A DNA stretch of 35,792 nucleotides from Draconibacterium sp. Its GTDB lineage: Bacteria > Bacteroidota > Bacteroidia > Bacteroidales > Prolixibacteraceae. A program made the position numbers and the translations under genes. Numbering within the stretch: the first letter of the stretch is position 1; each line of letters starts with the position of its first letter. The notes beneath the pieces are model-generated. The model was not told where the DNA came from, did no database searches, and saw only the letters and a program-made list of their open reading frames with translations. The stretch is from positions 1 through 35,792 of the forward strand of contig JAUVDE010000001.1 of NCBI GenBank assembly GCA_030595485.1, read 5' to 3'. Positions 1,189-33,959 of this stretch are shown here, piece after piece.

Positions 1189-1751
1189 AATATGGTGTAT
1201 AACTCGTCTTTCATCATTTCGCTTAAAATTGAATAGAGCTTTTTGCGTGCCCTGAACAATTTAACCTTCGTATTACTTTCCGAGAGTCTGGTGACCCTGC
1301 TTATTTCTTCAATCGATTGTTCTTCGAAATAATAGAGCAGAACCAATGTGTATTCCTCTTCGGGAAGTTTCGCTAACGCCTTTTTTACGGCTTGTGCACG
1401 ATTCTCTTCTGGAATGCCATCCAGATTTAATTCAGTAGTTTCATCTCTTATTTCTATGTCGTCAGTCGATGCAAAATGTATTTTTCGTTTCCTTACTTCC
1501 GAAATACAGTTATTGTATGTAATCCGGTAAAGCCAGGTGGAGAATTTTGCACTTCCTTTAAAAGTGTGTAACGACTTATAGGCTTTTATAAAACTTTCCT
1601 GTGCCATTTCCTCGGCATCTGTACGATTTTTAAGAACTTTTAGAGCAATTGAAAATACAATATCTTGATATTGTTCCACGATATATGAAAAGTAATTGGT
1701 TTGCCCAGCCTTTACTTTTTCTATATAATAGATATCGTCTTTTTGCTCCAT
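1185..1751 (-). CDS. ECF RNA polymerase sigma-70 factor
   Basis: 188 aa; region 2 DAEEMAQESFIKAY...FSTWLYRITYN and region 4 LYYFEEQSIEEIS...TKVKLFRARKKL. Confidence 0.95.
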   Translation of the reverse strand: MEQKDDIYYIEKVKAGQTNYFSYIVEQYQDIVFSIALKVLKNRTDAEEMAQESFIKAYKSLHTFKGSAKFSTWLYRITYNNCISEVRKRKIHFASTDDIEIRDETTELNLDGIPEENRAQAVKKALAKLPEEEYTLVLLYYFEEQSIEEISRVTRLSESNTKVKLFRARKKLYSILSEMMKDELYTIL

Positions 1752-5139: not shown

Positions 5140-5625
5140 ATGAAGACTGACGATTATTTAGAAGAAAAACCAGCTGCTATTGACCAGTTGGATGAAAAAA
5201 TACTCAAATTAATTACAAAAAATGCCCGAATTCCTTTTCTTGAAGTTGCTCGCGAGTGCGGAGTTTCAGGAGCTGCAATTCACCAAAGGGTACAGCGATT
5301 ATTGAATATTGGTGTTGTTCATGGAAGTGAATTTATTGTGAGCCCGCAGAAGCTGGGTTACAATACTTGTGCTTACATGGGGATTTACTTAGATAAGGCA
5401 AAATATCATGCACAGGTTGCCGAAGCTTTACGTAAAATTCCAGAAATTGTAGAGTGTCATTACACCACTGGTGCTTATGCCATCTTTGCGAAAATTCAAA
5501 CAAAAACCAATAAGCATTTAAAACGTTTAATCGACGAAGAACTTCAGGATATTGAAGGGATTGCACGAACCGAAACGTTTATATCGCTTGAAATGGATTT
5601 TAAACGACAAGTTCCTATCAAATAA
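5140..5625 (+). CDS. Lrp/AsnC family transcriptional regulator (paralog 1)
   Basis: IDQLDEKIL...NARIPFLEVARECGVSGAAIHQRV HTH; ECHYTTG; TETFISL. Confidence 0.95.
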   Translation: MKTDDYLEEKPAAIDQLDEKILKLITKNARIPFLEVARECGVSGAAIHQRVQRLLNIGVVHGSEFIVSPQKLGYNTCAYMGIYLDKAKYHAQVAEALRKIPEIVECHYTTGAYAIFAKIQTKTNKHLKRLIDEELQDIEGIARTETFISLEMDFKRQVPIK

Positions 5626-5653
5626 AAAAGCCGGTTTTAAACCGGCTTTTTTT
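5624..5653. terminator. Bidirectional intrinsic terminator
   Basis: AAAAAAGCCGGTTTTAAACCGGCTTTTTTT near-perfect inverted repeat. Confidence 0.9.
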
Positions 5654-5671
5654 TATCTCATTTTATTCGTT

Positions 5672-7006
5672 TTAACTGTTTTCGTTGGAATAAGCAATGT
5701 TATACGATTCGTTGTGTTGGCTCATGTCCAAACCAATCTTCTCTCCATGCGGTGAAATACGCATCGGAACAATCATATCGGTAATTTTATACATTAACAT
5801 TGAACCTCCGAATGTAAAGATGCCAACAATTACAAGTGCCAATAAGTGATAAAGGAAAGTCGTGATTTCACCGTGAATAAGTCCTACTTCGTTGGCAAAA
5901 ACTGCAGTGGCAAGCATACCAACAATTCCACCCATTCCGTGTGCAGGAAATACATCTAGAGTATCATCTAAACGCGATTTGGAACGAAGTGTAATGGAAT
6001 AATTACTAACAATGGCAGCAATGACTCCAATAAAAACACTTGAGCCAATATTTACAAATCCGGCAGCAGGAGTAATTGCAACCAACCCAACTACCAGTCC
6101 AATAGATGCACCAACTGCCGAAGGTTTTCGTCCTTGAGCTGCATCGAAGAAAATCCAGGTTAACATGGCTGCTGCTGATGCAGTATTCGTATTTACGAGA
6201 GCAGTAGCTGCAACCGCATCGGCTGCCAAGGCTGAACCTGCATTGAATCCAAACCAACCAAACCAAAGCATACCAGCTCCTAATAATATATAAGGAATAT
6301 TGGCAGGCTTAAATTCTTTGCTGGCATCTTTTCTTCTGCCTAAGAAAATGGCACCTGCTAAAGCCGCAAAACCTGCAGACATGTGAACAACGGTACCACC
6401 GGCAAAGTCAAGTACTCCCCAATTTCTTAAGAATCCATTTGGGTGCCAGGTCCAATGGGCTAGTGGGGCGTATATAAATACAATAAACAGTACCATAAAT
6501 AGCATATAGGCTCTAAAACGAACTCTTCCGGCAAAGGACCCAGTAATAAGTGCTGGGGTAATTATGGCAAATTTAAGTTGGAACATTGCAAATATTGCAA
6601 ATGGGAAGGTTGGTGCAAAGTCGGGGTGGGTTCCGCCACCAACGCCTTTGAACATGAAATAGGTGAAGGGGTTTCCAAATAAACCAAAGCCGTCGGGGCC
6701 AATACTTTCTCCAAATGCAATGCTAAACCCAACAACAACCCAAAGTACACTTACTATTCCCATGGCAATAAAACTCTGTAGCATGGTTGAAATGATGTTA
6801 CGTGGTTGTGCCATTCCTCCGTAAAAAAACGCAAGTCCTGGAGTCATTAAAAGCACAAGGCCAGTTGCTGTTAACATCCAGGCAGTATCTCCTGTATCTA
6901 TGTTTGAAAAATCTTGCTCGCCAAGTCCGGTAGGAATAAAAAGGCCTACGAAGGCAACAATTACCAATAGGGCTAAAATAAGCCACCAACTTAATGTCTT
7001 TTTCAT
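5672..7006 (-). CDS. amt: Ammonium transporter (Amt family)
   Basis: GDTAW, PGLAFFYGG, DFAGGTVVH, WFGWFGFNAGS, DDTLDVFPAHG (both pore histidines present). Confidence 0.97.
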   Translation of the reverse strand: MKKTLSWWLILALLVIVAFVGLFIPTGLGEQDFSNIDTGDTAWMLTATGLVLLMTPGLAFFYGGMAQPRNIISTMLQSFIAMGIVSVLWVVVGFSIAFGESIGPDGFGLFGNPFTYFMFKGVGGGTHPDFAPTFPFAIFAMFQLKFAIITPALITGSFAGRVRFRAYMLFMVLFIVFIYAPLAHWTWHPNGFLRNWGVLDFAGGTVVHMSAGFAALAGAIFLGRRKDASKEFKPANIPYILLGAGMLWFGWFGFNAGSALAADAVAATALVNTNTASAAAMLTWIFFDAAQGRKPSAVGASIGLVVGLVAITPAAGFVNIGSSVFIGVIAAIVSNYSITLRSKSRLDDTLDVFPAHGMGGIVGMLATAVFANEVGLIHGEITTFLYHLLALVIVGIFTFGGSMLMYKITDMIVPMRISPHGEKIGLDMSQHNESYNIAYSNENS

Positions 7007-7021
7007 TTGTCTGTCGTTTTT

Positions 7022-7056
7022 AATAGCTTAAAACAATGCCATTGTAATAAGCTATT
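7022..7056. repeat. 35-bp imperfect inverted repeat upstream of amt
   Basis: AATAGCTTA-AA-ACAATG-C-CATTGT-AA-TAAGCTATT. Confidence 0.7.
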
Positions 7057-7286
7057 TATATTTAAATAAACTAGAGTTTACTTACTGTCTGTTATTAATT
7101 CGAGTTGAATGTATGAATATATTGTTTTATTTAGGTTTAATGTGGAAAAAAGAAAGATAAAATGAATAATACTTAACAGATTGATAAAGATTGCGGCATT
7201 GGAACTAGGTTTGCCAGTATTGTTTTCATTTTGTTACTTTCTATGTAATTGCCTTTCTAAAACTTGAATTAATGTTAGTTTTTTGA

Positions 7287-7294
7287 TAATTTTG
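7287..7294 (+). promoter_or_regulatory. Bacteroidota sigma-70 -7 element
   Basis: TAATTTTG, 17 nt upstream of the second Lrp/AsnC start. Confidence 0.55.
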
Positions 7295-7311
7295 GTAGAA
7301 AATTGTAAGAT

Positions 7312-7779
7312 ATGACTTTGAGGAATAATTTGGATGACTGGGATTTAAAGATTTTAGATATTATTACAAAAAATGCACGTATACCTTTTAAAGATGTAGC
7401 TAAAGAAGTGGGGATCTCACGAGCGGCAGTTCATCAACGTGTTAATAGAATGGTAGATTTAGAAGTTATTGTTGGTTCCGGTTATCACATTAATCCTAAA
7501 AAAGTTGAATTTAAAACCTGCACTTACATAGGTATTTTTCTGGATAAAGGTGGCCTTTTTACTGAAGTAGTAAAAGAGCTGGAAAAGATTCTGGAGATTG
7601 TGGAATGTCATTATACCACAGGTCAGTATGCAATTTTTGTTAAAGTATATGCAAAAGACAACGAACACCTGAAAAATATCCTAAGTGGTAAGATTCAGAA
7701 AATTCAGGGCATTGCAAGTACCGAGACTTTTATTTCTCTGGAAGAATCATTCAAAAGAACAATTCCGGTAAACGCTTAG
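7312..7779 (+). CDS. Lrp/AsnC family transcriptional regulator (paralog 2)
   Basis: LDDWDLKIL...NARIPFKDVAKEVGISRAAVHQRV; ECHYTTG; TETFISL. Confidence 0.95.
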   Translation: MTLRNNLDDWDLKILDIITKNARIPFKDVAKEVGISRAAVHQRVNRMVDLEVIVGSGYHINPKKVEFKTCTYIGIFLDKGGLFTEVVKELEKILEIVECHYTTGQYAIFVKVYAKDNEHLKNILSGKIQKIQGIASTETFISLEESFKRTIPVNA

Positions 7780-8513
7780 TTACGTTGTCGGATAGCCTCG
7801 TATATCATCAGGGCTGCCGATACCGAAACATTTAAAGAACCTATTTCTCCAAGAATTGGAATTTGTAATTGCTCATCGGCAATACGCAAAATCTGATTTG
7901 AAATACCTGTATCTTCAGAACCCATAACTATACCTAAAGGCATTGTTAAATTGGCCTGAGTATATAATTTATTTCCCTTTTCGCTTGCTGCGACAACAAA
8001 TATGCCCGAAGCTTGCAAAAAGCTAACCGTATCGGTAATGTTCTTTACTCTACAAATAGGTATATGGTGAATAGCTCCTGCCGAAGTTTTTATGGCATCT
8101 GCACCAATTCGCGCCATTCCTTTTTCCGGAATTACAATGGCATGTACGCCTGCACATTCTGCAGAACGGGTGATGGCTCCAAAATTACGCACATCTGTAA
8201 TTTGGTCAAGAATAAGGATTAATGGAGTTTTACCTTCTTCGTAAATGCCCGGAAGCACATTTTCAATATTGTCGAATTCAACTGGCGAAATAAAAGCCAA
8301 AACGCCCTGGTGATTTTTTCGGGTAACACGATTAATCTTTTCAACCGGAACATATTGAGTTACAATGTCATTCTCTTTTATCAACTGGTGCAACTCTTGA
8401 AACAACTCATTCGAAAGTCCCTTTTTTATTAGTACCTTTTCTACTGTTTTTCCTTTTTTTATAGCTTCAATTACAGCTCGTGTTCCAAATATAAAATCTT
8501 CGTTGTTTGTCAT
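7776..8513 (-). CDS. rlmB: 23S rRNA (guanosine-2251-2'-O)-methyltransferase RlmB (TrmH/SPOUT)
   Basis: FGTRAVIEA, NHQGV, DQITDVRNFGAITRSAEC, MGSEDTG, SLNVSVS; start moved from 8537 to the ATG at 8513, which overlaps the ABC-F stop (TAATG). Confidence 0.93.
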   Translation of the reverse strand: MTNNEDFIFGTRAVIEAIKKGKTVEKVLIKKGLSNELFQELHQLIKENDIVTQYVPVEKINRVTRKNHQGVLAFISPVEFDNIENVLPGIYEEGKTPLILILDQITDVRNFGAITRSAECAGVHAIVIPEKGMARIGADAIKTSAGAIHHIPICRVKNITDTVSFLQASGIFVVAASEKGNKLYTQANLTMPLGIVMGSEDTGISNQILRIADEQLQIPILGEIGSLNVSVSAALMIYEAIRQRN

Positions 8514-10459
8514 TACCAGGTTTTTTTTAGTTTCCAATTTTCAAGTTCTTCGTGTGTGTGTGCCCAATCGTGCATTGTTTGCTCTAAATCGGCTTTTCGT
8601 TTATCGTAATTTTCAAAAATAGAGTGGTCTTCCAGTTCAACTGATGATGACAATTGTTTGTCGATTGCCTCAATTTCTTCTTCAAGTTTGGCAATTTCCT
8701 CTTCTGTTTGAATTACTTTTTTCTCCAAACGCGAAATCGTACGATTCACTTCTTTTCGCTCTTCAAAGGTAAGCTCATTTGTTGATTTTACCTTACTTTC
8801 TTGTTTTGTTGTTCTTGCCGCTCCTTTTTTTGCTTCCAGCTCTTTCAGCGATTCCATTTTTTTACGATAAAGGAAATCGAAAATCCCACCAAGGTGTTGT
8901 CTTGCTTTTTTATTTCGAAACTCGTAAATACAATTTATTAATCCGTCGAGGAAATCGCGGTCGTGCGAAACCACCAAAACAGTTCCGGGGAAATTAGCCA
9001 AAGCATTTTTTAGAATTTCTTTCGAGCGCATATCCAAATGGTTGGTTGGCTCATCTAATATCAGAAAGTTAACCGGTTCCAGCATCAAACGAATCATTGC
9101 CAGTCTTGACTTTTCTCCGCCACTTAATACCTTAACTTTTTTGTCAATGTCTTCTCCTCGGAAAAGAAAAGCGGCCAAAATATCTCTTATTCTTGTGCGA
9201 ATATCACCAATGGCAATTTGGTCAATCGTTTCAAAAATGGTTAGTTCTTCATTTAAAAGTTGTGCTTGGTTTTGTGCAAAATAACCCACTTTAACATTAT
9301 GCCCAAGTGTCAAGCTGCCTTCATGTTGCAGCTCGTCCATTATAATTCGGGCAAGCGTGGTTTTACCTTCTCCGTTTCGACCAATAAAAGCTACTTTTTC
9401 CCCATTTTCAATGGTAAGGTCTACATCTTTTAATACCTCGAGAGTACCATATGATTTGCTTATGTGTTTAGCTTCTACAACAACTTTACCCGAACGAGGA
9501 GGGGGAGGGAAGTTTAATTTTAATGCTGAGTTATCTTCCTCTTCAATTTCTAGTCTATCCAGTCTGTTCAGCTGCTTTACCCTCGACTGAACTTGCACTG
9601 CTTTGCTCGCTTTGTACCTGAAACGTTCAATAAAACGTTCGGTATCCTCAATCATCTTTTGCTGGTTACGGTAGGCGGCTAGTTGCACTTCCTTTTGTTC
9701 CTCTTTCCAAACAATAAACTTTGAGTAGTTCATACGTTGGTCAGTAATTTTTCCCAGCGAAATTTCAATGGTTCGGTTACCCACAGCATCCAGGAAGGTA
9801 CGATCGTGTGAAACCAAAACAACAGCACCTGAATATGTTTTTAGGAAATCTTCCAGCCACTGAATAGATTCAATATCGAGATGGTTGGTAGGCTCATCCA
9901 AAAGAAAAACATCGGGTTTACGTAAAAGAAGTTTTACCAGCTCCACACGCATACGCCATCCTCCACTAAATTCAGAGGTCATTCGATTGAAATCGCTTCT
10001 TTCAAATCCAAGCCCAAGTATGGTTTGCTCCAACTCGGCTTCGTAATTATCGCCCCCCAACATTTGGTAACGTTCATTTAATTCAGTTACCAAGTCCAGC
10101 TTTTTTAGATATTCTTCAGCGTGGTAATCGTTACTTTCAGCAATTTCCGTATTTAATTTGGCAATTTTCTTTTCCAGCTCAATTAGCTCCTCAAATGCCA
10201 GAGTAGCTTCTTCTTTTAAAGTTCTGGAGTCAACAATTTTCATTTGCTGAGGCAAGTAGCCAATTGAAACATCTTTGGGAATCCCCACACTTCCTGCAGT
10301 TTGATTTTCTTGGCCCGTAATAATTTTAAGCAATGTTGTTTTTCCAGCACCATTTTTTCCAATTAGCCCAATCCTGTCTTTAGGATTAATTAAAAAGCTA
10401 ATCTCTTTAAATAGTTCGAAGCCACCAAAACTCAGGTTTATTTTATCTAATGAAATCAT
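8513..10459 (-). CDS. ABC-F family ribosome-associated ATPase
   Basis: Two ABC domains (GKNGAGKTT/FSGGWRMR/LDEPTNHLD and GRNGEGKTT/LSGGEKSR/LDEPTNHLD), no TM segments, C-terminal coiled coil; ATG at 10459 preferred over TTG at 10465. Confidence 0.95.
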   Translation of the reverse strand: MISLDKINLSFGGFELFKEISFLINPKDRIGLIGKNGAGKTTLLKIITGQENQTAGSVGIPKDVSIGYLPQQMKIVDSRTLKEEATLAFEELIELEKKIAKLNTEIAESNDYHAEEYLKKLDLVTELNERYQMLGGDNYEAELEQTILGLGFERSDFNRMTSEFSGGWRMRVELVKLLLRKPDVFLLDEPTNHLDIESIQWLEDFLKTYSGAVVLVSHDRTFLDAVGNRTIEISLGKITDQRMNYSKFIVWKEEQKEVQLAAYRNQQKMIEDTERFIERFRYKASKAVQVQSRVKQLNRLDRLEIEEEDNSALKLNFPPPPRSGKVVVEAKHISKSYGTLEVLKDVDLTIENGEKVAFIGRNGEGKTTLARIIMDELQHEGSLTLGHNVKVGYFAQNQAQLLNEELTIFETIDQIAIGDIRTRIRDILAAFLFRGEDIDKKVKVLSGGEKSRLAMIRLMLEPVNFLILDEPTNHLDMRSKEILKNALANFPGTVLVVSHDRDFLDGLINCIYEFRNKKARQHLGGIFDFLYRKKMESLKELEAKKGAARTTKQESKVKSTNELTFEERKEVNRTISRLEKKVIQTEEEIAKLEEEIEAIDKQLSSSVELEDHSIFENYDKRKADLEQTMHDWAHTHEELENWKLKKTW

Positions 10460-10479: not shown

Positions 10480-10487
10480 CAAAGATA
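10480..10487 (-). promoter_or_regulatory. sigma-70 -7 element proximal to the ABC-F gene
   Basis: Minus strand TATCTTTG(C), 20 nt upstream of the ATG. Confidence 0.7.
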
Positions 10488-10524: not shown

Positions 10525-10546
10525 AAAAAAAATACCCTTACGGGTA
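10525..10546 (-). terminator. Short intrinsic terminator
   Basis: Minus strand UACCC-GUAA-GGGUA (GNRA loop) followed by U8. Confidence 0.6.
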
Positions 10547-10692
10547 AAAAAAGGAAGGGGAAAGCTCTATGGACGCTTTTTGAAGATGATTGATAATTTA
10601 CAAACCCCTAAACACAAAACCAATCATAAATACAGAAGTCGCTTCCCCCTTTTAAGTTTTACTTATTGAAAATAAAACCAACCATTAAATCA
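10525..10692 (-). ncRNA. Candidate structured sRNA or attenuator leader (about 165 nt)
   Basis: Bounded by the TATATTTG promoter (10697-10704) and the terminator; 11-bp outer stem AAGGGGGAAGC/GCUUUCCCCUU and inner stem AUGAUUGGU/AUCAAUCAU; contains two similar mini-ORFs; TSS is estimated. Confidence 0.6.
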
Positions 10693-10696
10693 AGAG

Positions 10697-10704
10697 CAAA
10701 TATA
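10697..10704 (-). promoter_or_regulatory. sigma-70 -7 element driving the candidate sRNA/leader
   Basis: Minus strand TATATTTG(C). Confidence 0.7.
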
Positions 10705-10849
10705 GGGAATAGAAATTCTTAGAAAAGTTATATAAAACATAAAACACTTTTGTACAGGCAATGTGACTTTATTTTCCCACAATGGGAAGCTTTGAATTTA
10801 TTTGGGAATGTGGTTCGTTGGTGGGGTAGGTGAATGTATAATAATGAGT

Positions 10850-10857
10850 TATATTTG
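10850..10857 (+). promoter_or_regulatory. sigma-70 -7 element for rlmD
   Basis: TATATTTG(C), 17 nt before the GTG start. Confidence 0.7.
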
Positions 10858-10874
10858 CAGCAAAATTATTGAAC

Positions 10875-12284
10875 GTGGCTAGAAATAGAAAAAAACCTTT
10901 TTACGAGAATGTAAAAATTGAAGACATAGGTGCTGAGGGAAAAGCTGTTGCCAAAGTAGGCGAAATGGTAGTATTTACAAAAATGGCAATTCCTGGCGAT
11001 GTGGTTGATTTACAGGTTACAAAAAAACGCAAACGCTTTCAGGAAGCTTTTATAAAGGAGTATAAAGAGTATAGCAATGATCGAGTTGATGCATTTTGCG
11101 AACACTTTGGAACTTGTGGTGGATGTAAATGGCAAATGTTGCCTTACGATAAACAATTGTTTTACAAACAAAAACAGGTGAAGGATCAACTTTTAAGAAT
11201 AGGGAAAGTTGAAATTCCTGAAATTATGCCAATACTTGGTTCTAAAGAAAACACGTTTTATAGAAATAAGCTAGAATTTACATTTTCGAATAAACGGTGG
11301 CTAACATTTGATGAAGTAGAAGCCGGAAATGAGATTGAAAAACCCGATGCACTAGGTTTTCATGTGCCAGGTTTATTTGATAAAGTAATTAACATCACTA
11401 AATGTTGGTTGCAACCTGAACCTTCGAATAAAATAAGAAACTTTATCTATGAGTACGCAATTGATAATGGACTAGCGTTTTTCGATATTCGAGCACAAAC
11501 AGGTTTCTTACGCACCTTAATACTGCGCACGAGTTCTACGGGGGAAAATATGCTTATCATAACTTTTTACCACGAGGATGAAAGTAAGCGAACGGCTTTA
11601 TTAGAAGCTGTTAAAAATGAGTTTCCTGAGATTACCTCGCTGCTATATGTAATTAACACAAAAGGAAATGATACAATAACCGATCAAAAAATCGAGGTCT
11701 TTAACGGAAGAGAATACATTTTGGAAGAAATGGAGGGACTGAAGTTTAAAATAGGCGCAAAAAGTTTTTACCAAACAAATTCGGAGCAAGCTTATACTTT
11801 ATACAAGGTAACCCGCGATTTTGCTGAATTGGATGGAACAGAAACAGTTTATGATCTTTATACAGGCACAGGAACGATTGCAAATTTTGTGGCAAGGAGT
11901 GCAAAAAAGGTGGTTGGGATTGAATATGTTCCCGAGGCTATTGAAGATGCAAAAGTAAATTCGCAACTAAACGGAATTACGAATACGTCTTTTTTTGCTG
12001 GTGACATGAAAGATGTGCTTAACGAAGACTTTGTTCGTAAGCATGGCAAGCCGGAAGTAATTATAACAGATCCTCCTCGAGCAGGAATGCATGCCGATGT
12101 AATTAATACCATTTTAAAAGTAGCTCCAAATAAAATAGTTTATGTTAGTTGTAACCCTGCAACTCAGGCTCGAGATATCGCAATTTTGGACGAATTTTAC
12201 CAAATTGAGAAAATATGTCCTGTTGACATGTTCCCACACACCCATCACGTCGAAAATGTGGTGTTACTTACAAAAAGAGCTTGA
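10875..12284 (+). CDS. rlmD: 23S rRNA (uracil-1939-C5)-methyltransferase RlmD
   Basis: N-terminal TRAM domain, Fe-S motif CEHFGTCGGC, SFYQTN, DLYTGTG, DPPRAG, YVSCNP, DMFPHTHHVE; GTG at 10875 preferred over TTG at 10869. Confidence 0.95.
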   Translation: MARNRKKPFYENVKIEDIGAEGKAVAKVGEMVVFTKMAIPGDVVDLQVTKKRKRFQEAFIKEYKEYSNDRVDAFCEHFGTCGGCKWQMLPYDKQLFYKQKQVKDQLLRIGKVEIPEIMPILGSKENTFYRNKLEFTFSNKRWLTFDEVEAGNEIEKPDALGFHVPGLFDKVINITKCWLQPEPSNKIRNFIYEYAIDNGLAFFDIRAQTGFLRTLILRTSSTGENMLIITFYHEDESKRTALLEAVKNEFPEITSLLYVINTKGNDTITDQKIEVFNGREYILEEMEGLKFKIGAKSFYQTNSEQAYTLYKVTRDFAELDGTETVYDLYTGTGTIANFVARSAKKVVGIEYVPEAIEDAKVNSQLNGITNTSFFAGDMKDVLNEDFVRKHGKPEVIITDPPRAGMHADVINTILKVAPNKIVYVSCNPATQARDIAILDEFYQIEKICPVDMFPHTHHVENVVLLTKRA

Positions 12285-19092: not shown

Positions 19093-21282
19093 ATGCGTTA
19101 CACTATAACTATATTTCTTTGTTTGCTATTCATTTCAACCCTTTCTTTCGGACAACTTTCTTCTGGAGGTTTTCCTTTGCAAGTTAATGCTTTAAAGAGT
19201 GCAGAGAAGCAATTTGTTCGAATGCCCATATTGAAACAAAGTGTTATTGATGAGGCTATGAATCGAAATGCCTCAACTGATAACATGTTGAAGGCCTTTA
19301 AATTTGCGCATGCATTCGAAGTTGATTTAAACCCTACCAATTCGGGACAATGGTATTCAACTAACGCAAACTATAATGTTTGGAAGCTTACTATTGAATC
19401 GAAAAATGCAAAATCGCTCAACCTTATTTTTCATAATTTTCAGCTTCCCGATGGTGTACGACTTTATTTGTATAATGAAAAGCTAAATCATTACCTCGGT
19501 GCTTTTACTTCGGATAACAACAAGCCATCTGAAAAATTTGCAGTAGCTCCGGTTGCTGGCGGTGAAATTACCATTCAATACGAAGTTCCTAAAGCTATGG
19601 GAACTCCAGCCGATTTTAAAATAGCACGAGTAAACCATGATTTTATTGGGATATTAAAATTTGATAGAAGACCATTTAGTCCTACAGTTGCCGGTGATTG
19701 TAATGTGGATGTAAACTGCGATTTTGCTGTTAGATGGAATGATATTAAAAATTCGGTTTGCCGCTTAATTGTTGATGGCGACGAAGTTTGTAGCGGAACT
19801 TTAATAAATAATACTTCCGAAGACCAGACACCGTATGTAATTTCAGCATCGCATTGTTATGATAAATGGGAATATGCTGAAACCAGTGTTTATACTTTTA
19901 ATTACGAAAGTCCGTATTGTGCGCCGCTTGATGGCGATCCAATGCATTCACTCTCTGGTTCAATTATGAAGGCTCATTTTGATAGTTTAGATTTTGCATT
20001 GGTACAGTTAGATGAAATACCTCCACCTAATTTCAGACCCTATTATGCGGGCTGGAATCGCTTAAGTTCCTTACCCGACTCTTCGGTAAGTATTCACCAC
20101 CCGTGGGGAGATGTGAAAAAGATTGCTTTGGACTACGATGAAGCTGCTTATGCTACATTTGAATCAAATTCGATAAAAAATCCTAAAAATGGGTCGTTTG
20201 AAATTAAACGGTGGGATGAAGGTGTGACAGAAAAAGGTTCGTCGGGAGGTGGTCTTTTTGATAATAAAGAGAACTTTATTGGAACATTATCGGGAGGAGC
20301 AGCTTATTGTGGAAATCCAGTTAGAGACTATTTCGCTCGTTTTGCAATGCAATGGGATTACAGCTCTGATTCAACAAAACAGCTAAAATATTGGCTGGAT
20401 CCCATAAACTCTGGCCAAGAAATTTTAGATGGGAAACAGTTTAATACAGGTGAGAATTTATGCAAAGCCTTTACCAACCTGACCGATTTTGATGAGCATA
20501 CAAATGTTGGATTGACTGTTTCTGGAGAAGATAAGGGATATTGGGGAGGAACAAATGACGTTGGTATTACCGAAATTGTAGAGCGTTTTCATATTTCAGG
20601 AAATGAAAGTTTGGATGGAATTGCCTTAGGTATAGGTAAGCTCGTCCAATCATCAAGTGCTTCGGATAACGAAATTAAGATTAAGGTATACGACGGTGAT
20701 AAAATGCCTGAGACTTTGATTTATAGTAAGCTAGTGAATATTAAGGGTTTTGCTGAAGATGCAATGAATTACATTGAATTTGATGAAACCGTTGAGCCTC
20801 AGGATACTTTTTTTATAGGTTTCGAACTTACCAATATTAATACACAAGACACTTTTGTAATTTATCAGTCGCTACGTTCCGAACAGGATTTACCAAACAG
20901 TTTTTTTTATAAGAAAAATAGTTCCTGGTACAATTTTAAAGACACAAATCCACAGGCTTATTCAATGGTTAATGTTATGGAGTTGGTCGCTTGTAATATT
21001 GATAATATAACCGATACGCCAATTGTTGAAATACCGGTGAATGTTTTAATTTATCCCAATCCAACTTCTTCAGAATTGGTTTTGGAATCGGATAATGAAA
21101 TAGATCCCACAAGTATTTCTGTCTACAATATAATAGGACAAGAGCTTTCTGTTTACCTGCTAAACGTTGAGCCTTACAGAGTAAGAATCAATTTAGATGG
21201 AAAAACACCAGGAGTATATTTTGTCCGATTTAATTACGACGATTCTTACGTAACACGCAAGTTCTCGTTTGTTCCCAAATAA
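19093..21282 (+). CDS. T9SS-secreted trypsin-like (lysyl endopeptidase-type) serine protease
   Basis: Signal peptide and propeptide; CSGTLINN, SASHC (His), DFAL (Asp), GSSGG (Ser); C-terminal IYPNP...GVYFVR T9SS type A CTD. Confidence 0.88.
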   Translation: MRYTITIFLCLLFISTLSFGQLSSGGFPLQVNALKSAEKQFVRMPILKQSVIDEAMNRNASTDNMLKAFKFAHAFEVDLNPTNSGQWYSTNANYNVWKLTIESKNAKSLNLIFHNFQLPDGVRLYLYNEKLNHYLGAFTSDNNKPSEKFAVAPVAGGEITIQYEVPKAMGTPADFKIARVNHDFIGILKFDRRPFSPTVAGDCNVDVNCDFAVRWNDIKNSVCRLIVDGDEVCSGTLINNTSEDQTPYVISASHCYDKWEYAETSVYTFNYESPYCAPLDGDPMHSLSGSIMKAHFDSLDFALVQLDEIPPPNFRPYYAGWNRLSSLPDSSVSIHHPWGDVKKIALDYDEAAYATFESNSIKNPKNGSFEIKRWDEGVTEKGSSGGGLFDNKENFIGTLSGGAAYCGNPVRDYFARFAMQWDYSSDSTKQLKYWLDPINSGQEILDGKQFNTGENLCKAFTNLTDFDEHTNVGLTVSGEDKGYWGGTNDVGITEIVERFHISGNESLDGIALGIGKLVQSSSASDNEIKIKVYDGDKMPETLIYSKLVNIKGFAEDAMNYIEFDETVEPQDTFFIGFELTNINTQDTFVIYQSLRSEQDLPNSFFYKKNSSWYNFKDTNPQAYSMVNVMELVACNIDNITDTPIVEIPVNVLIYPNPTSSELVLESDNEIDPTSISVYNIIGQELSVYLLNVEPYRVRINLDGKTPGVYFVRFNYDDSYVTRKFSFVPK

Positions 21283-32120: not shown

Positions 32121-33959
32121 TTATCCGTCGTTCATTGATGCAAGGAACTCTTCAGTGTTTTTTGCACGCATGAGTCGTGTTTTAATGAATTCCATTGCTT
32201 CCAGCGAATTCATATCGCCCAGGTAGTTGCGTAAAATCCATAATTTATCCAAAACTTCTTTTCTAAATAATAAATCTTCGCGACGTGTACTTGACGTTGG
32301 AATATCCACGGCAGGGAAAATACGTTTGTTCGAAAGTTTCCTGTCGAGTTGTAATTCCATGTTACCGGTCCCTTTAAATTCTTCGAAAATTACTTCATCC
32401 ATTTTCGAACCGGTTTCTGTTAGGGCAGTTGCAAGAATGGTTAAAGAACCACCATCTTCGATGTTACGTGCAGCACCAAAGAAACGTTTTGGTTTGTGCA
32501 ATGCGTTAGCGTCGACACCACCCGAAAGTACTTTACCCGATGGAGGTTGAACCGTATTGTATGCACGTGCCAAACGTGTAATCGAGTCGAGCAGAATAAC
32601 CACATCGTGACCACATTCTGTAAGCCTTTTAGCTTTCTCTAAAACAATATTTGCAATTCGTACATGTTTGTCGGCTGGCTCGTCGAAAGTTGACGAAATA
32701 ACCTCGGCATTTACGCTGCGTGCCATGTCTGTAACTTCTTCCGGACGTTCGTCGATAAGAAGAACAATCATATAAACTTCGGGATGATTAGCTGCAATTG
32801 CATTTGCAATTTCTTTTAAAAGAACAGTTTTACCTGTTTTAGGCTGAGCAACAATCAATCCACGTTGACCTTTTCCTATTGGCGCAAACAAGTCCACTAC
32901 ACGTGTTGAAATACTGTCCTGACCATTTCCAATTAACGTGAACTTTTCATCAGGGAAAAGAGGTACTAAATGTTCGAAAGGAACACGGTCGCGAATGTAT
33001 TCAGGACTGCGTCCGTTAATCTCGTTTACTTTTATGAGCGGGAAATATTTTTCACCTTCTTTTGGTGGACGAACAGTACCTGTAACAGTATCACCCGTTT
33101 TTAAACCGAACAATTTAATTTGCGACTGCGAAACATAAATATCGTCAGGCGAATTCAGGTAGTTGAAATCCGATGAGCGAAGGAAACCATATCCATCCTG
33201 CAGAATTTCCAAAACACCTGTGTTGGAAATAATACCTTCAAATTCGAAATTGCGTTGTTTCTGACGGTTGTTATTGTTCTGATTCGCTTGTCTTTGCTGG
33301 CCTTCGTTTCTTTTTGGTTCAGGCTTTTGCTGTCCGTCATTTCGTTTAGTATCCGCTTTTTGTGTTGGCTGTTCGCCTTGCGGTTCAGCTTGTGGCTGTG
33401 CTTGCTGTCTCTGCTGTTGCTGAGCTTGCTTAATCGGTTTGAATTGCGAAACTTTTTTCTCCTCTTTTTTAACCGGAGGAGTTGCTGCAGCCGGCGTTTG
33501 ATCAGCCTCTTTCTTAACCTCTTCACCTTCCGGTTTTTCGCGGTTAAAGCCTTTAATAATTGATTTTATTTGATCTTGACGCGATTGAACACCGTCAGCC
33601 TTTTTATCGCCTTGTTTTTGTGGAGGTTGTTTTTTGCGTGGTCCGGCGCCAACTTTCTCACGCTTAATAGTTTCTACCCTCTGGCGAGGACGTTTCTGGC
33701 GTCGAGGTTCTTCTTTTTCAACTTCCTCTTTTTTGGTCGTTTTTTTAATTAAACCAAGCAATCCTCCTTTTTCTTCTTTTTTCTCTTTAGGAGCATACTT
33801 ACGTTCCTTCTTTTCGGCTTCTAAAATAGCCTGTGTATCTAAAATCTTATAAATTAAATCTTGTTTTTTGTAAGATTCAACTCGTTTGATCTTAAGCTCC
33901 TTAGCAATGTCCTTTAACTCAGGAACGAGCTTTTTATTCAATTCTAAAATATCGTACAT
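32121..33959 (-). CDS. rho: Transcription termination factor Rho with a long low-complexity insert
   Basis: [68 protein letters not shown]. Confidence 0.98.

What the first reader, a model, noticed from the sequence alone, without database searches (positions are those of the whole stretch)
10598..10685. Twin paralogous mini-ORFs MVGFIFNK and MIGFVFRGL with mutually exclusive start-codon pairing
Seen: minus strand 10659-10685 reads ATG GTT GGT TTT ATT TTC AAT AAG TAA and 10598-10627 reads ATG ATT GGT TTT GTG TTT AGG GGT TTG TAA. Both give M-[VI]-G-F-[IV]-F with conservative swaps and stop after 8-9 codons. The segment AUCAAUCAU (10586-10594), just after the second stop, can pair with either AUGAUUGGU (ORF2 start) or AUGGUUGGU (ORF1 start), which suggests a switch. 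Inference: these are tandem leader or arrest peptides sensing translation, or a duplicated single-stranded UUGGUUUU protein/mRNA-binding motif that only looks like an ORF.
Basis: partly seen in the sequence, partly recalled or inferred. Interest (0 to 1): 0.72.

Follow-up and report, generated by a model that had tools for sequence, protein, structure and literature searches.

The report
Multicopy small RNA targeting secreted protease
The two 'mini-ORFs' are repeated motifs inside a conserved, multicopy structured element of one group of Prolixibacteraceae bacteria, likely a stand-alone small RNA that is predicted to pair on both sides of the start codon of a secreted metalloprotease-like gene and so likely shut off its translation.

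Summary
The coordinates, peptides and complementarity are correct, but the leader-peptide and switch reading fails. The repeats lie in a ~165-nt element (10691→10526, minus strand) with its own TAnnTTTG promoter motif and its own terminator; the ABC-F gene has a separate promoter motif. MVGFIFNK is kept in 21 of 79 orthologous copies, the genome's paralog lacks the second ATG, and the alternative pairing costs 11 kcal/mol. The ~100-nt core is an undescribed multicopy family (no Rfam match) confined to the Draconibacterium/Maribellus/Mariniphaga/Tangfeifania clade. Its closing stem covaries (9 of 9 pairs) and its loop boxes are nearly invariant. Dispersed copies often carry sigma-54-type promoter motifs under the same upstream palindrome, TTCCCA-N3-TGGGAA. 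A candidate target emerged: a T9SS-secreted metalloprotease-like gene ranks 1 of 2,246 for pairing with boxes B and D on either side of its AUG. Sites occur in 41 of 49 orthologs, against 1 of 38 outside homologs, in two reading frames, often repeated along its leader. Best reading: a trans-acting base-pairing sRNA, probably repressing, analogous to FopS, Rfp18 and Qrr but not a member of them. Transcript ends, pairing and the sign of regulation are untested.

The parts
10526..10691 (-). Predicted stand-alone small RNA, ~165 nt (long form of the family); ends inferred from promoter and terminator motifs
   Evidence: Conservation starts at GATTTAATGG and ends at the U tail in orthologs; median 165.5 nt in 64 long copies
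10697..10704 (-). Bacteroidota primary-sigma -7 box TATATTTG (TAnnTTTG)
   Evidence: In 75 of 77 long copies, 73 in one 10-nt bin; shuffles 15; consensus from PMC7366714 passage
10774..10788 (.). Palindrome TTCCCA-N3-TGGGAA, likely a regulator site shared by the family
   Evidence: 74 of 77 long and 30 of 78 short copies, shuffles 0.1; the only perfect copy in G000
10800..10808 (-). Extra TTCCCA half-site about 20 bp further upstream
   Evidence: Consensus of long copies
10680..10691 (-). 5' single-stranded tail GAUUUAAUGGUU (holds the 'ORF1' AUG); candidate seed U1
   Evidence: Mean unpaired probability 0.86; pairs at <= -9 kcal/mol just before the target AUG in 9 of 49 orthologs and 0 of 38 outside homologs
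10655..10679 (-). Hairpin H1, covering most of 'ORF1'
   Evidence: Formed by all 40 commonest variants printed despite loop indels
10641..10651 (-). Closing stem P1, 5' strand
   Evidence: 9 of 9 pairs with two-sided changes, 98% of cells paired, 69 distinct rows
10616..10627 (-). Box A (AUGAUUGGUUUU; 'ORF2' start), 5' strand of inner helix P2
   Evidence: Mean A:C pairing probability 0.75
10596..10610 (-). Box B (UAGGGGUUUGUAAAU), candidate seed for the upstream site ACAAACCY
   Evidence: Near-invariant; complementary sites at about -35..-18 of the target
10586..10594 (-). Box C (AUCAAUCAU), 3' strand of P2
   Evidence: 8 pairs 95-97% paired, 3 with a two-sided change
10568..10581 (-). Box D (AAAAAGCGUCCAUA), candidate seed for the first codons; in G000 it is predicted to cover the target's AUG itself
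10555..10565 (-). Closing stem P1, 3' strand, followed by a U-rich run
10526..10546 (-). Intrinsic terminator (TACCC-GTAA-GGGTA + U8)
   Evidence: stem variants TGCCC/GGGCA and CACCC/GGGTG; pattern in 53 of 64 long copies
10480..10487 (-). Separate TATCTTTG promoter box of the ABC-F gene
   Evidence: 68 of 68 ABC-F genes that follow a copy have TAnnTTTG within 60 nt of the start; also seen in outgroup loci without the RNA
8513..10459 (-). ABC-F ATPase gene (648 aa); a neighbour, not shown to be a target
   Evidence: NCBIfam and Pfam
10869..12284 (+). rlmD, the divergent neighbour that marks the syntenic copy
   Evidence: TIGR00479 above cut-off

Best explanation
The element is likely a trans-acting small RNA, one of a multicopy family, that is predicted to base-pair on both sides of the start codon of a secreted metalloprotease-like gene and would thereby block its translation. 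Shown by comparison: its own promoter and terminator motifs, a covarying closing stem P1, an inner helix P2, near-invariant boxes A-D, 1 to several copies per genome, and a shared upstream palindrome. Inferred mechanism: a regulator bound at TTCCCA-N3-TGGGAA drives the copies, through sigma-54 at many dispersed copies and the primary sigma at this rlmD-linked copy. P1 clamps the ends of the ~100-nt core and P2 presents two exposed seeds. Box B binds ACAAACCY about 18-35 nt before the AUG, and box D binds GGACGCUU or GACGCUUUUU in codons 2-5 (in G000 including the AUG). The 5' tail, which holds the 'ORF1' AUG, is a third seed in some lineages. Two contacts flanking the AUG would occlude the A-rich initiation region on which Bacteroidota depend. 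Extra B sites and duplicated start regions in the target's 300-450-nt leader would act as decoys that set a dose threshold (speculative). The 'mini-ORFs' are by-products of GGUUU-rich seeds.
For: Autonomy: promoter motif in 75 of 77 long copies. ABC-F is absent downstream of 8 of 66 long and 68 of 78 short copies, and has its own promoter motif in 68 of 68. Outgroup loci L207, L214 and L216 keep rlmD next to ABC-F with no RNA. The nearest downstream gene of short copies is on the opposite strand in 11 of 29. Structure. Promoter geometry: strict sigma-54 motif in 24 of 78 short copies against 0.5 in shuffles; in the shortest class P1 begins about 11-12 nt after the -12 box; G000 has rpoN and three sigma-54 activator domains. 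Target: 7 B/D sites in its leader against at most 2 for any other of 2,249 called genes. Rank 1 of 2,246 for summed B+D duplex energy (-29.1; mean -10.8, SD 3.1, next -23.0). In a clade of 49 orthologs (SH-aLRT 100, quick tree), all from genomes with the RNA, 41 have at least one site and 31 have two or more. Outside the clade the figures are 1 and 0 of 38; the genome background is 3 of 2,246 with two. Without the 7 rows brought in by the pattern search they are 34 and 25 of 42. The D site sits at offset +8 in 25 rows and +4 in 10, so in two frames, behind Trp or Arg codons alike. A control T9SS protease family shows no such conservation (B 1 of 28 vs 1 of 21; D 0). Precedent: Rfp18 controls secreted metalloprotease mRNAs, and its pairing region holds the same UGGUUGGUU 9-mer (PMC9723704).
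Against: No transcript end, strand or pairing was measured. The target patterns were written after the G000 leader was noticed, and the site-bearing orthologs are one clade, so one evolutionary event. There is no genome-wide enrichment of seed complements at start codons. Genera g26 and g29 have the RNA, but their homologs lack sites and no other bipartite target was found in 5 of their genomes, so the main targets may be unknown. The B and D sites lie in the same order on mRNA and sRNA, which needs a two-contact, non-colinear complex rather than one duplex. Single-sequence folding of this copy is only modestly better than shuffles (z -1.5 to -1.7). Deleting Rfp18 lowers its target mRNAs, so the sign could be activation. 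32 of 78 short copies lack even the loose sigma-54 motif.
Confidence: 0.68

Rival explanations
1. A stand-alone sRNA that mainly sponges an RNA-binding protein (CsrB, RsmY or CrcZ logic; recalled) through repeated GGUUU motifs; the mRNA complementarity is secondary.
For: Three GGUUU-type repeats; dedicated upstream palindrome and sigma-54-type promoters; no global enrichment at start codons; a sibling RNA shows box B in a hairpin loop and box C unpaired from A; the genome encodes an RRM protein and a cold-shock protein.
Against: Does not explain why complements of two or three different boxes are kept around one gene's AUG in two frames. Near-invariance over 70 nt is more typical of seeds than of protein sponges (established knowledge).
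Confidence: 0.14
2. Same base-pairing sRNA, but it stabilises or activates the metalloprotease mRNA.
For: Deleting Rfp18 reduces two metalloprotease mRNAs (PMC9723704 passages). Many B sites lie far upstream in the leader.
Against: Box D binds codons 2-5 and, in G000, the AUG itself; the 5' tail binds directly before the AUG in 9 orthologs.
Confidence: 0.08
3. Tandem leader or arrest peptides that attenuate the ABC-F gene through a pairing switch.
For: Both ORFs exist. ORF2 starts with ATG in 78 of 79 long copies, and MIGFVFRGL is encoded by 118 of 166 copies. ABC-F follows 58 of 66 long copies. A terminator lies between.
Against: ORF1 is kept in 21 of 79; no synonymous change in 30 orthologs. 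Start contexts rank at the 2.8th and 0.5th percentile of 2,249 called starts (the ABC-F start itself only at the 10th). The alternative pairing costs 11.1 kcal/mol and, even when forced, leaves the terminator intact. ABC-F has its own promoter motif.
Confidence: 0.04
4. A DNA element: a miniature inverted-repeat mobile element, or a cluster of transcription-factor sites shared with the protease gene's upstream region.
For: Dispersed copies with complementary ends; tandem duplicates in some genomes; ACAAACCC is repeated 2-5 times upstream of the target.
Against: Promoter motifs and the palindrome are conserved 50-170 bp outside the stem ends. One copy is syntenic across genera with a near-invariant interior. 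The stems keep G-U pairs. One site lies inside the coding sequence.
Confidence: 0.04
5. A divergent 6S RNA.
For: Closing stem, central bubble and inner stem look superficially 6S-like; no 6S match in the 75%-complete G000.
Against: No Rfam match. A separate single-copy Bacteroidales-1/6S-Flavo match lies elsewhere in 5 of 5 near-complete relatives. This family is multicopy and clade-restricted.
Confidence: 0.02

Closest known systems
FopS and GibS of Bacteroides thetaiotaomicron (PMC11697453: abstract, sections 8, 14, 28 and supplement 4 rows; PMC7366714 passages)
   Same: Paralogous intergenic sRNAs of Bacteroidota with U-rich seeds that pair near start codons of envelope or secreted proteins
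   Different: Different seed (FopS-10 and GibS begin GUGUUUUUCAUAG). FopS is a single-stranded 5' part plus terminator under primary-sigma promoters. This family has an end-closing stem, 2-3 seeds and sigma-54-type motifs at many copies. No Rfam match.
Rfp18 of Flavobacterium (PMC9723704: passages and supplement rows)
   Same: About 100 nt; controls secreted metalloprotease mRNAs; its pairing region contains UGGUUGGUU, as does unit 1 here
   Different: One seed region in stem-loop 3; by eye no P1 clamp or boxes B-D (no alignment run); deletion lowers target mRNA
Vibrio Qrr1-5 (recalled, no call)
   Same: Several paralogous base-pairing sRNAs under sigma-54 and an upstream activator site
   Different: Hfq-dependent and proteobacterial; no similarity detected in Rfam scans; here one copy has a primary-sigma promoter under the same upstream site
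OxyS-fhlA and RNAIII-rot double kissing complexes (recalled, no call)
   Same: Two separate contacts, one upstream of and one inside the coding sequence
   Different: Here the two sites are in parallel order and are repeated along a long leader
Leader-peptide attenuators of antibiotic-resistance ABC-F genes (recalled, no call)
   Same: Short ORFs and a terminator upstream of an ABC-F gene
   Different: Peptide and linkage not conserved; ABC-F has its own promoter motif; all named resistance ABC-F models score below cut-off

Membership tests
ABC-F leader-peptide attenuator | Conserved peptide and frame | tested here: not met
   ORF1 in 21 of 79; ORF2 ATG lost in 27 of 87 short copies
ABC-F leader-peptide attenuator | Alternative fold that removes the terminator | tested here: not met
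   Probability 0.000 in 64 of 64; the forced fold keeps the terminator
ABC-F leader-peptide attenuator | Gene transcribed from the promoter upstream of the leader | tested here: not met
   Own TAnnTTTG in 68 of 68; motif evidence only
ABC-F leader-peptide attenuator | Ribosome initiation or stalling on the uORF | not testable with these tools
   Needs Ribo-seq or toeprinting
FopS/GibS | R1 seed at the 5' end | tested here: not met
   Primer-derived 5' ends differ; no Rfam match
FopS/GibS | Multicopy intergenic sRNA with its own promoter and terminator | tested here: met
   (motifs, not transcripts)
FopS/GibS | Binding to the RRM protein RbpB | not testable with these tools
   One RRM gene is present
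Rfp18 | Homologous sequence and four-hairpin fold | tested here: inconclusive
   By eye only a shared 9-mer; no alignment run
6S RNA (RF00013, RF01693, RF01685) | Covariance-model match; single copy | tested here: not met
   separate locus in 5 of 5 relatives
Trans-acting base-pairing sRNA (general kind) | Conserved exposed seed with conserved complementary target sites | tested here: met
   control
Trans-acting base-pairing sRNA (general kind) | Discrete transcript and pairing-dependent regulation | not testable with these tools
   Only contigs of mixed communities were available
Sigma-54-dependent sRNA (Qrr/CrcZ logic) | -24/-12 motif, upstream activator site, rpoN and activator genes | tested here: met
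   For dispersed copies; not met for the window's own copy, which has the primary-sigma box

The most novel reading that the evidence does not exclude
A sigma-54/primary-sigma dual-input family of end-clamped sRNAs that staples a target mRNA on both sides of its AUG with separate seeds. The target's leader carries duplicated copies of its own start region as built-in decoys, so secreted-protease output would switch at a threshold set by the number of sRNA copies fired by one dedicated regulator.
Probability: 0.3. Interest if true: 0.82.

Novelty: new variant of a known kind. Interest (0 to 1): 0.64.

Why it matters
How sRNAs regulate translation in Bacteroidota, which lack Shine-Dalgarno initiation and Hfq, is known from a few gut and fish-associated species (PMC7366714, PMC11697453, PMC9723704, passages read). 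This is an undescribed family in a free-living clade. It comes with a specific target gene, defined seeds, natural variants that swap one site for another, and a regulator palindrome that is unique in the genome, so each step can be tested directly. It points to a link between sigma-54 signalling and T9SS protease secretion. The UGGUUGGUU motif shared with Rfp18 hints at a recurring way to control secreted metalloproteases in the phylum.

Tried and rejected
Rfam: 0 matches at E<=5 for the region and none on the RNA in 12 paralog loci. Viral contigs: 0 matches. Model R2 over 140 other genomes of the order: two matches at E~0.04, not accepted. Global target scans (duplex energies, 8-mers) showed no enrichment at start codons; a first attempt timed out. 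BLAST look-alikes on C161, C277 and C366 lie in coding sequence. The window's trypsin-like T9SS gene (19093-21282) has B-like text upstream in this genome only, so it was rejected as a conserved target and used as a control. T9SS cargo as a class is not enriched (13 crude calls). The 5'-tail pattern in 5 genomes gave 22 matches against 12 for the control, few at real starts. The D-only pattern was below its control. The target leaders hold no hidden antisense copy of the RNA. The regulator could not be assigned. A possible B:D pseudoknot was seen by eye and not tested. Metatranscriptomes (8 of 23 listed runs laid): contigs of relatives cover the RNA core in all 8. In X8 and X17, core-only contigs are deeper (61-157) than those running past the terminator (10-13). 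However, one X1 contig runs 18 nt past the predicted start, and contig depth cannot show ends, strand or level, so this is not counted as evidence. Codon counts and position counts are partly circular (selected by pattern) and are not relied on. Literature searches that found no description: 'Prolixibacteraceae + small RNA', 'Draconibacterium + sRNA' (66), 'Bacteroidetes + sigma54 + small RNA + RpoN' (65), 'ABC-F + leader peptide + attenuation + Bacteroidetes' (119), 'Rfp18' (118, only the original paper). The library lacks most subscription papers. The FopS alignment figure and its main supplementary PDF were not readable.

Full report
Observation. They lie in the 409-nt gap between an ABC-F gene (10459-8513, minus strand) and a divergent rlmD. 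The twin motif occurs only here in the genome. Rfam has nothing for the region.

It is a self-contained element. In 30 orthologous loci chosen by BLAST, conservation starts abruptly at GATTTAATGG (10691), 4-5 nt after an invariant TAnnTTTG box. It stays near 100% for about 135 nt and ends in a terminator whose stem changes in pairs. All 36 same-genus genomes match. Among 166 distinct copies collected (79 long, 87 short), 75 of 77 long copies with enough flank have the TAnnTTTG box. ABC-F follows 58 of 66 long copies and 10 of 78 short ones, and all 68 have their own TAnnTTTG within 60 nt of the start. In 29 rlmD loci from genomes without a model match, three keep ABC-F next to rlmD across a gap of about 170-210 nt with no RNA. 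The element therefore looks inserted beside ABC-F rather than built as its leader.

The peptides are not what is conserved. ORF1 reads MVGFIFNK in 21 of 79 long copies and gives 26 different peptides of 6-28 aa, because indels fall in the loop of hairpin H1. ORF2 begins with ATG in 78 of 79 long copies but only 60 of 87 short ones (19 TTG, 8 non-start codons); this genome's paralog on C434 has TTG. No synonymous change appears in the 30 BLAST-chosen orthologs. Both starts score poorly against a matrix from 2,249 called genes (2.8th and 0.5th percentile; the ABC-F start only reaches the 10th, so the test is blunt). Because ORF2 is intact in most long copies, occasional translation is not excluded. 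The switch fails: in 64 of 64 long RNAs the ORF1:C pairing has probability 0.000, against a mean of 0.75 for ORF2:C. Forcing it costs 11.1 kcal/mol and leaves the terminator standing.

The family. The 3' ~100 nt recur at dispersed sites, up to 5 model matches per genome. The model matches 27 of 100 family genomes, in 8 of 36 genera counting G000, and none convincingly among 140 other genomes of the order. On 69 distinct rows, closing stem P1 shows two-sided changes at 9 of 9 pairs. Inner helix P2 is 95-97% paired, with 3 of 8 pairs changed on both sides. That alignment was fitted to the model and the rows are related. Boxes A, B, C and D stay nearly fixed while the spacers vary. A separate 6S-type match exists elsewhere in 5 of 5 near-complete relatives.

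Transcription signals. Short copies mostly lack TAnnTTTG (12 of 78, shuffles 12.6) but carry TGG[CT]-N7-TTG (loose 46 of 78 vs 11; strict 24 vs 0.5). In the shortest class P1 begins about 11-12 nt after the -12 box, the spacing expected for a sigma-54 start (spacing from established knowledge). Sigma-54 promoters are documented in Flavobacterium (PMC9723704 passage). Both classes share TTCCCA-N3-TGGGAA upstream (74 of 77 long, 30 of 78 short), and the window's copy is the only perfect one in G000. G000 encodes RpoN and three activator domains; which one binds is unknown.

A target. Global scans were negative. While listing box-B matches I noticed a leader on contig C164 with four ACAAACCC and three anti-D sites. 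The gene encodes an 815-aa protein with a T9SS C-terminal domain and an HExxH motif, with a below-cut-off match to NF038122 metalloproteases. It ranks 1 of 2,246 for summed B and D duplex energy around the start. There, box D pairs with UAUG-A-GACGCUUUUU, covering the AUG. Because the patterns were post hoc, I tested other genomes. A strict B..ATG..D pattern matches 14 of 101 family genomes (reversed control 2): 11 at this gene's start in genomes with the RNA, one at a SusC-like start in a genome without it, the rest off-start. It matches 14 of 36 same-genus genomes and 0 of 24 from other families (control 5 of 61). A quick tree of 87 homologs has a clade of 49 (SH-aLRT 100), all from RNA-bearing genomes. 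Of these, 41 have at least one site and 31 have two or more, against 1 and 0 of 38 outside. Dropping the 7 rows found by pattern gives 34 and 25 of 42. At least four of the site-less clade rows are second copies in genomes whose other copy has sites. The D site lies in two reading frames, and in nine orthologs the complement of the 5' tail (AACCAUUAAAUC or close) sits just before the AUG. 24 of 49 leaders hold two or more ACAAACCY, and several contain a decayed duplicate of the gene's own start region. A control T9SS protease family shows no such pattern. Limits: one clade is one event; genera g26 and g29 have the RNA without this target; and the site order requires two separate contacts.

Mechanism. 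Shown by comparison: autonomy motifs, structure, multicopy family, promoter classes, conserved complementary sites. Inferred: transcription, sigma-54 dependence, pairing, repression and the decoy role. I put stand-alone sRNA at about 0.9, pairing with this mRNA at about 0.75 and repression by it at about 0.68.

Comparison. It works like FopS/GibS (paralogous, start-region pairing), Rfp18 (secreted metalloprotease targets, shared UGGUUGGUU) and, from recall, Qrr and OxyS. It fails the sequence tests for FopS and 6S; homology to Rfp18 is not shown beyond the 9-mer. What I read: PMC11697453 abstract, sections 8, 14, 28 and supplement rows; PMC7366714, PMC13750123 and PMC12316311 passages; PMC9723704 passages and supplement rows. 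The searches listed under Tried and rejected found no description of this RNA. Earlier scan notes held nothing relevant.

Verdict. Real feature, wrong first interpretation: an undescribed, clade-restricted, multicopy sRNA family with a testable target. New variant of a known kind; interest 0.64.

Noticed in passing
G000:C314:11987-12170 (L258; relatives L259-L262, L264, L267): Sibling mini-RNA candidate with the same upstream site and sigma-54-type motif; it carries box C (without box A) and box B in its terminator-like hairpin loop.
   Followed up: partly
G000:C434:4156-4262 (L031): The genome's second full copy, with a sigma-54-type motif and a degenerate palindrome; it lacks unit 1 and the ATG.
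   Followed up: yes
L038:1212-1316(-) and 1540-1652(+); L080:970-1075(-) and 1501-1606(+): Divergent pairs of copies flanking one shared stretch with the palindrome, as for a bidirectional enhancer.
   Followed up: no
L326-L328, L321, L323, L329, L330, L332: The target's leader begins with a decayed duplicate of its own start region, giving short uORFs such as MRQTLL... about 300 nt upstream.
   Followed up: partly
L334:1525 onward (G004): A second candidate target: a large protein with a weak GH141 match whose start region carries anti-B, anti-5'-tail and anti-D text; conservation not tested.
   Followed up: partly
L064, L069, L071, L073, L075: In genera g26 and g29 the copy lacks unit 1 and mostly shows a TGGCA(T/C)GA.. 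sigma-54-like box instead of TAnnTTTG, suggesting a promoter swap under a kept palindrome.
   Followed up: partly
L286, L292, L353-L358, L360: In several genomes the target ortholog's open frame is only about 420-460 aa instead of about 815, so it may lack the T9SS tail.
   Followed up: no
G000:C324:1807-1870 and C326:7590-7615: Further palindrome plus sigma-54-type motif, and a GATAAAAAATAAGGGTTTG stretch like the 5' extensions of short copies; possible further members of the regulon.
   Followed up: no
window 10850-10877 (+): rlmD has its own TATATTTG box at 10850-10857 and probably starts at GTG 10875 rather than TTG 10869.
   Followed up: no
window 5140-7779: An ammonium-transporter-like gene flanked by two similar Lrp/AsnC-like regulator genes (recognised by eye).
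   Followed up: no
window 32121-33959 (-): Rho-like protein with a long Q/K/E-rich N-terminal insertion (by eye).
   Followed up: no
L137: One long copy lies in a record titled Ignavibacteriales; mislabel or transfer not tested.
   Followed up: no
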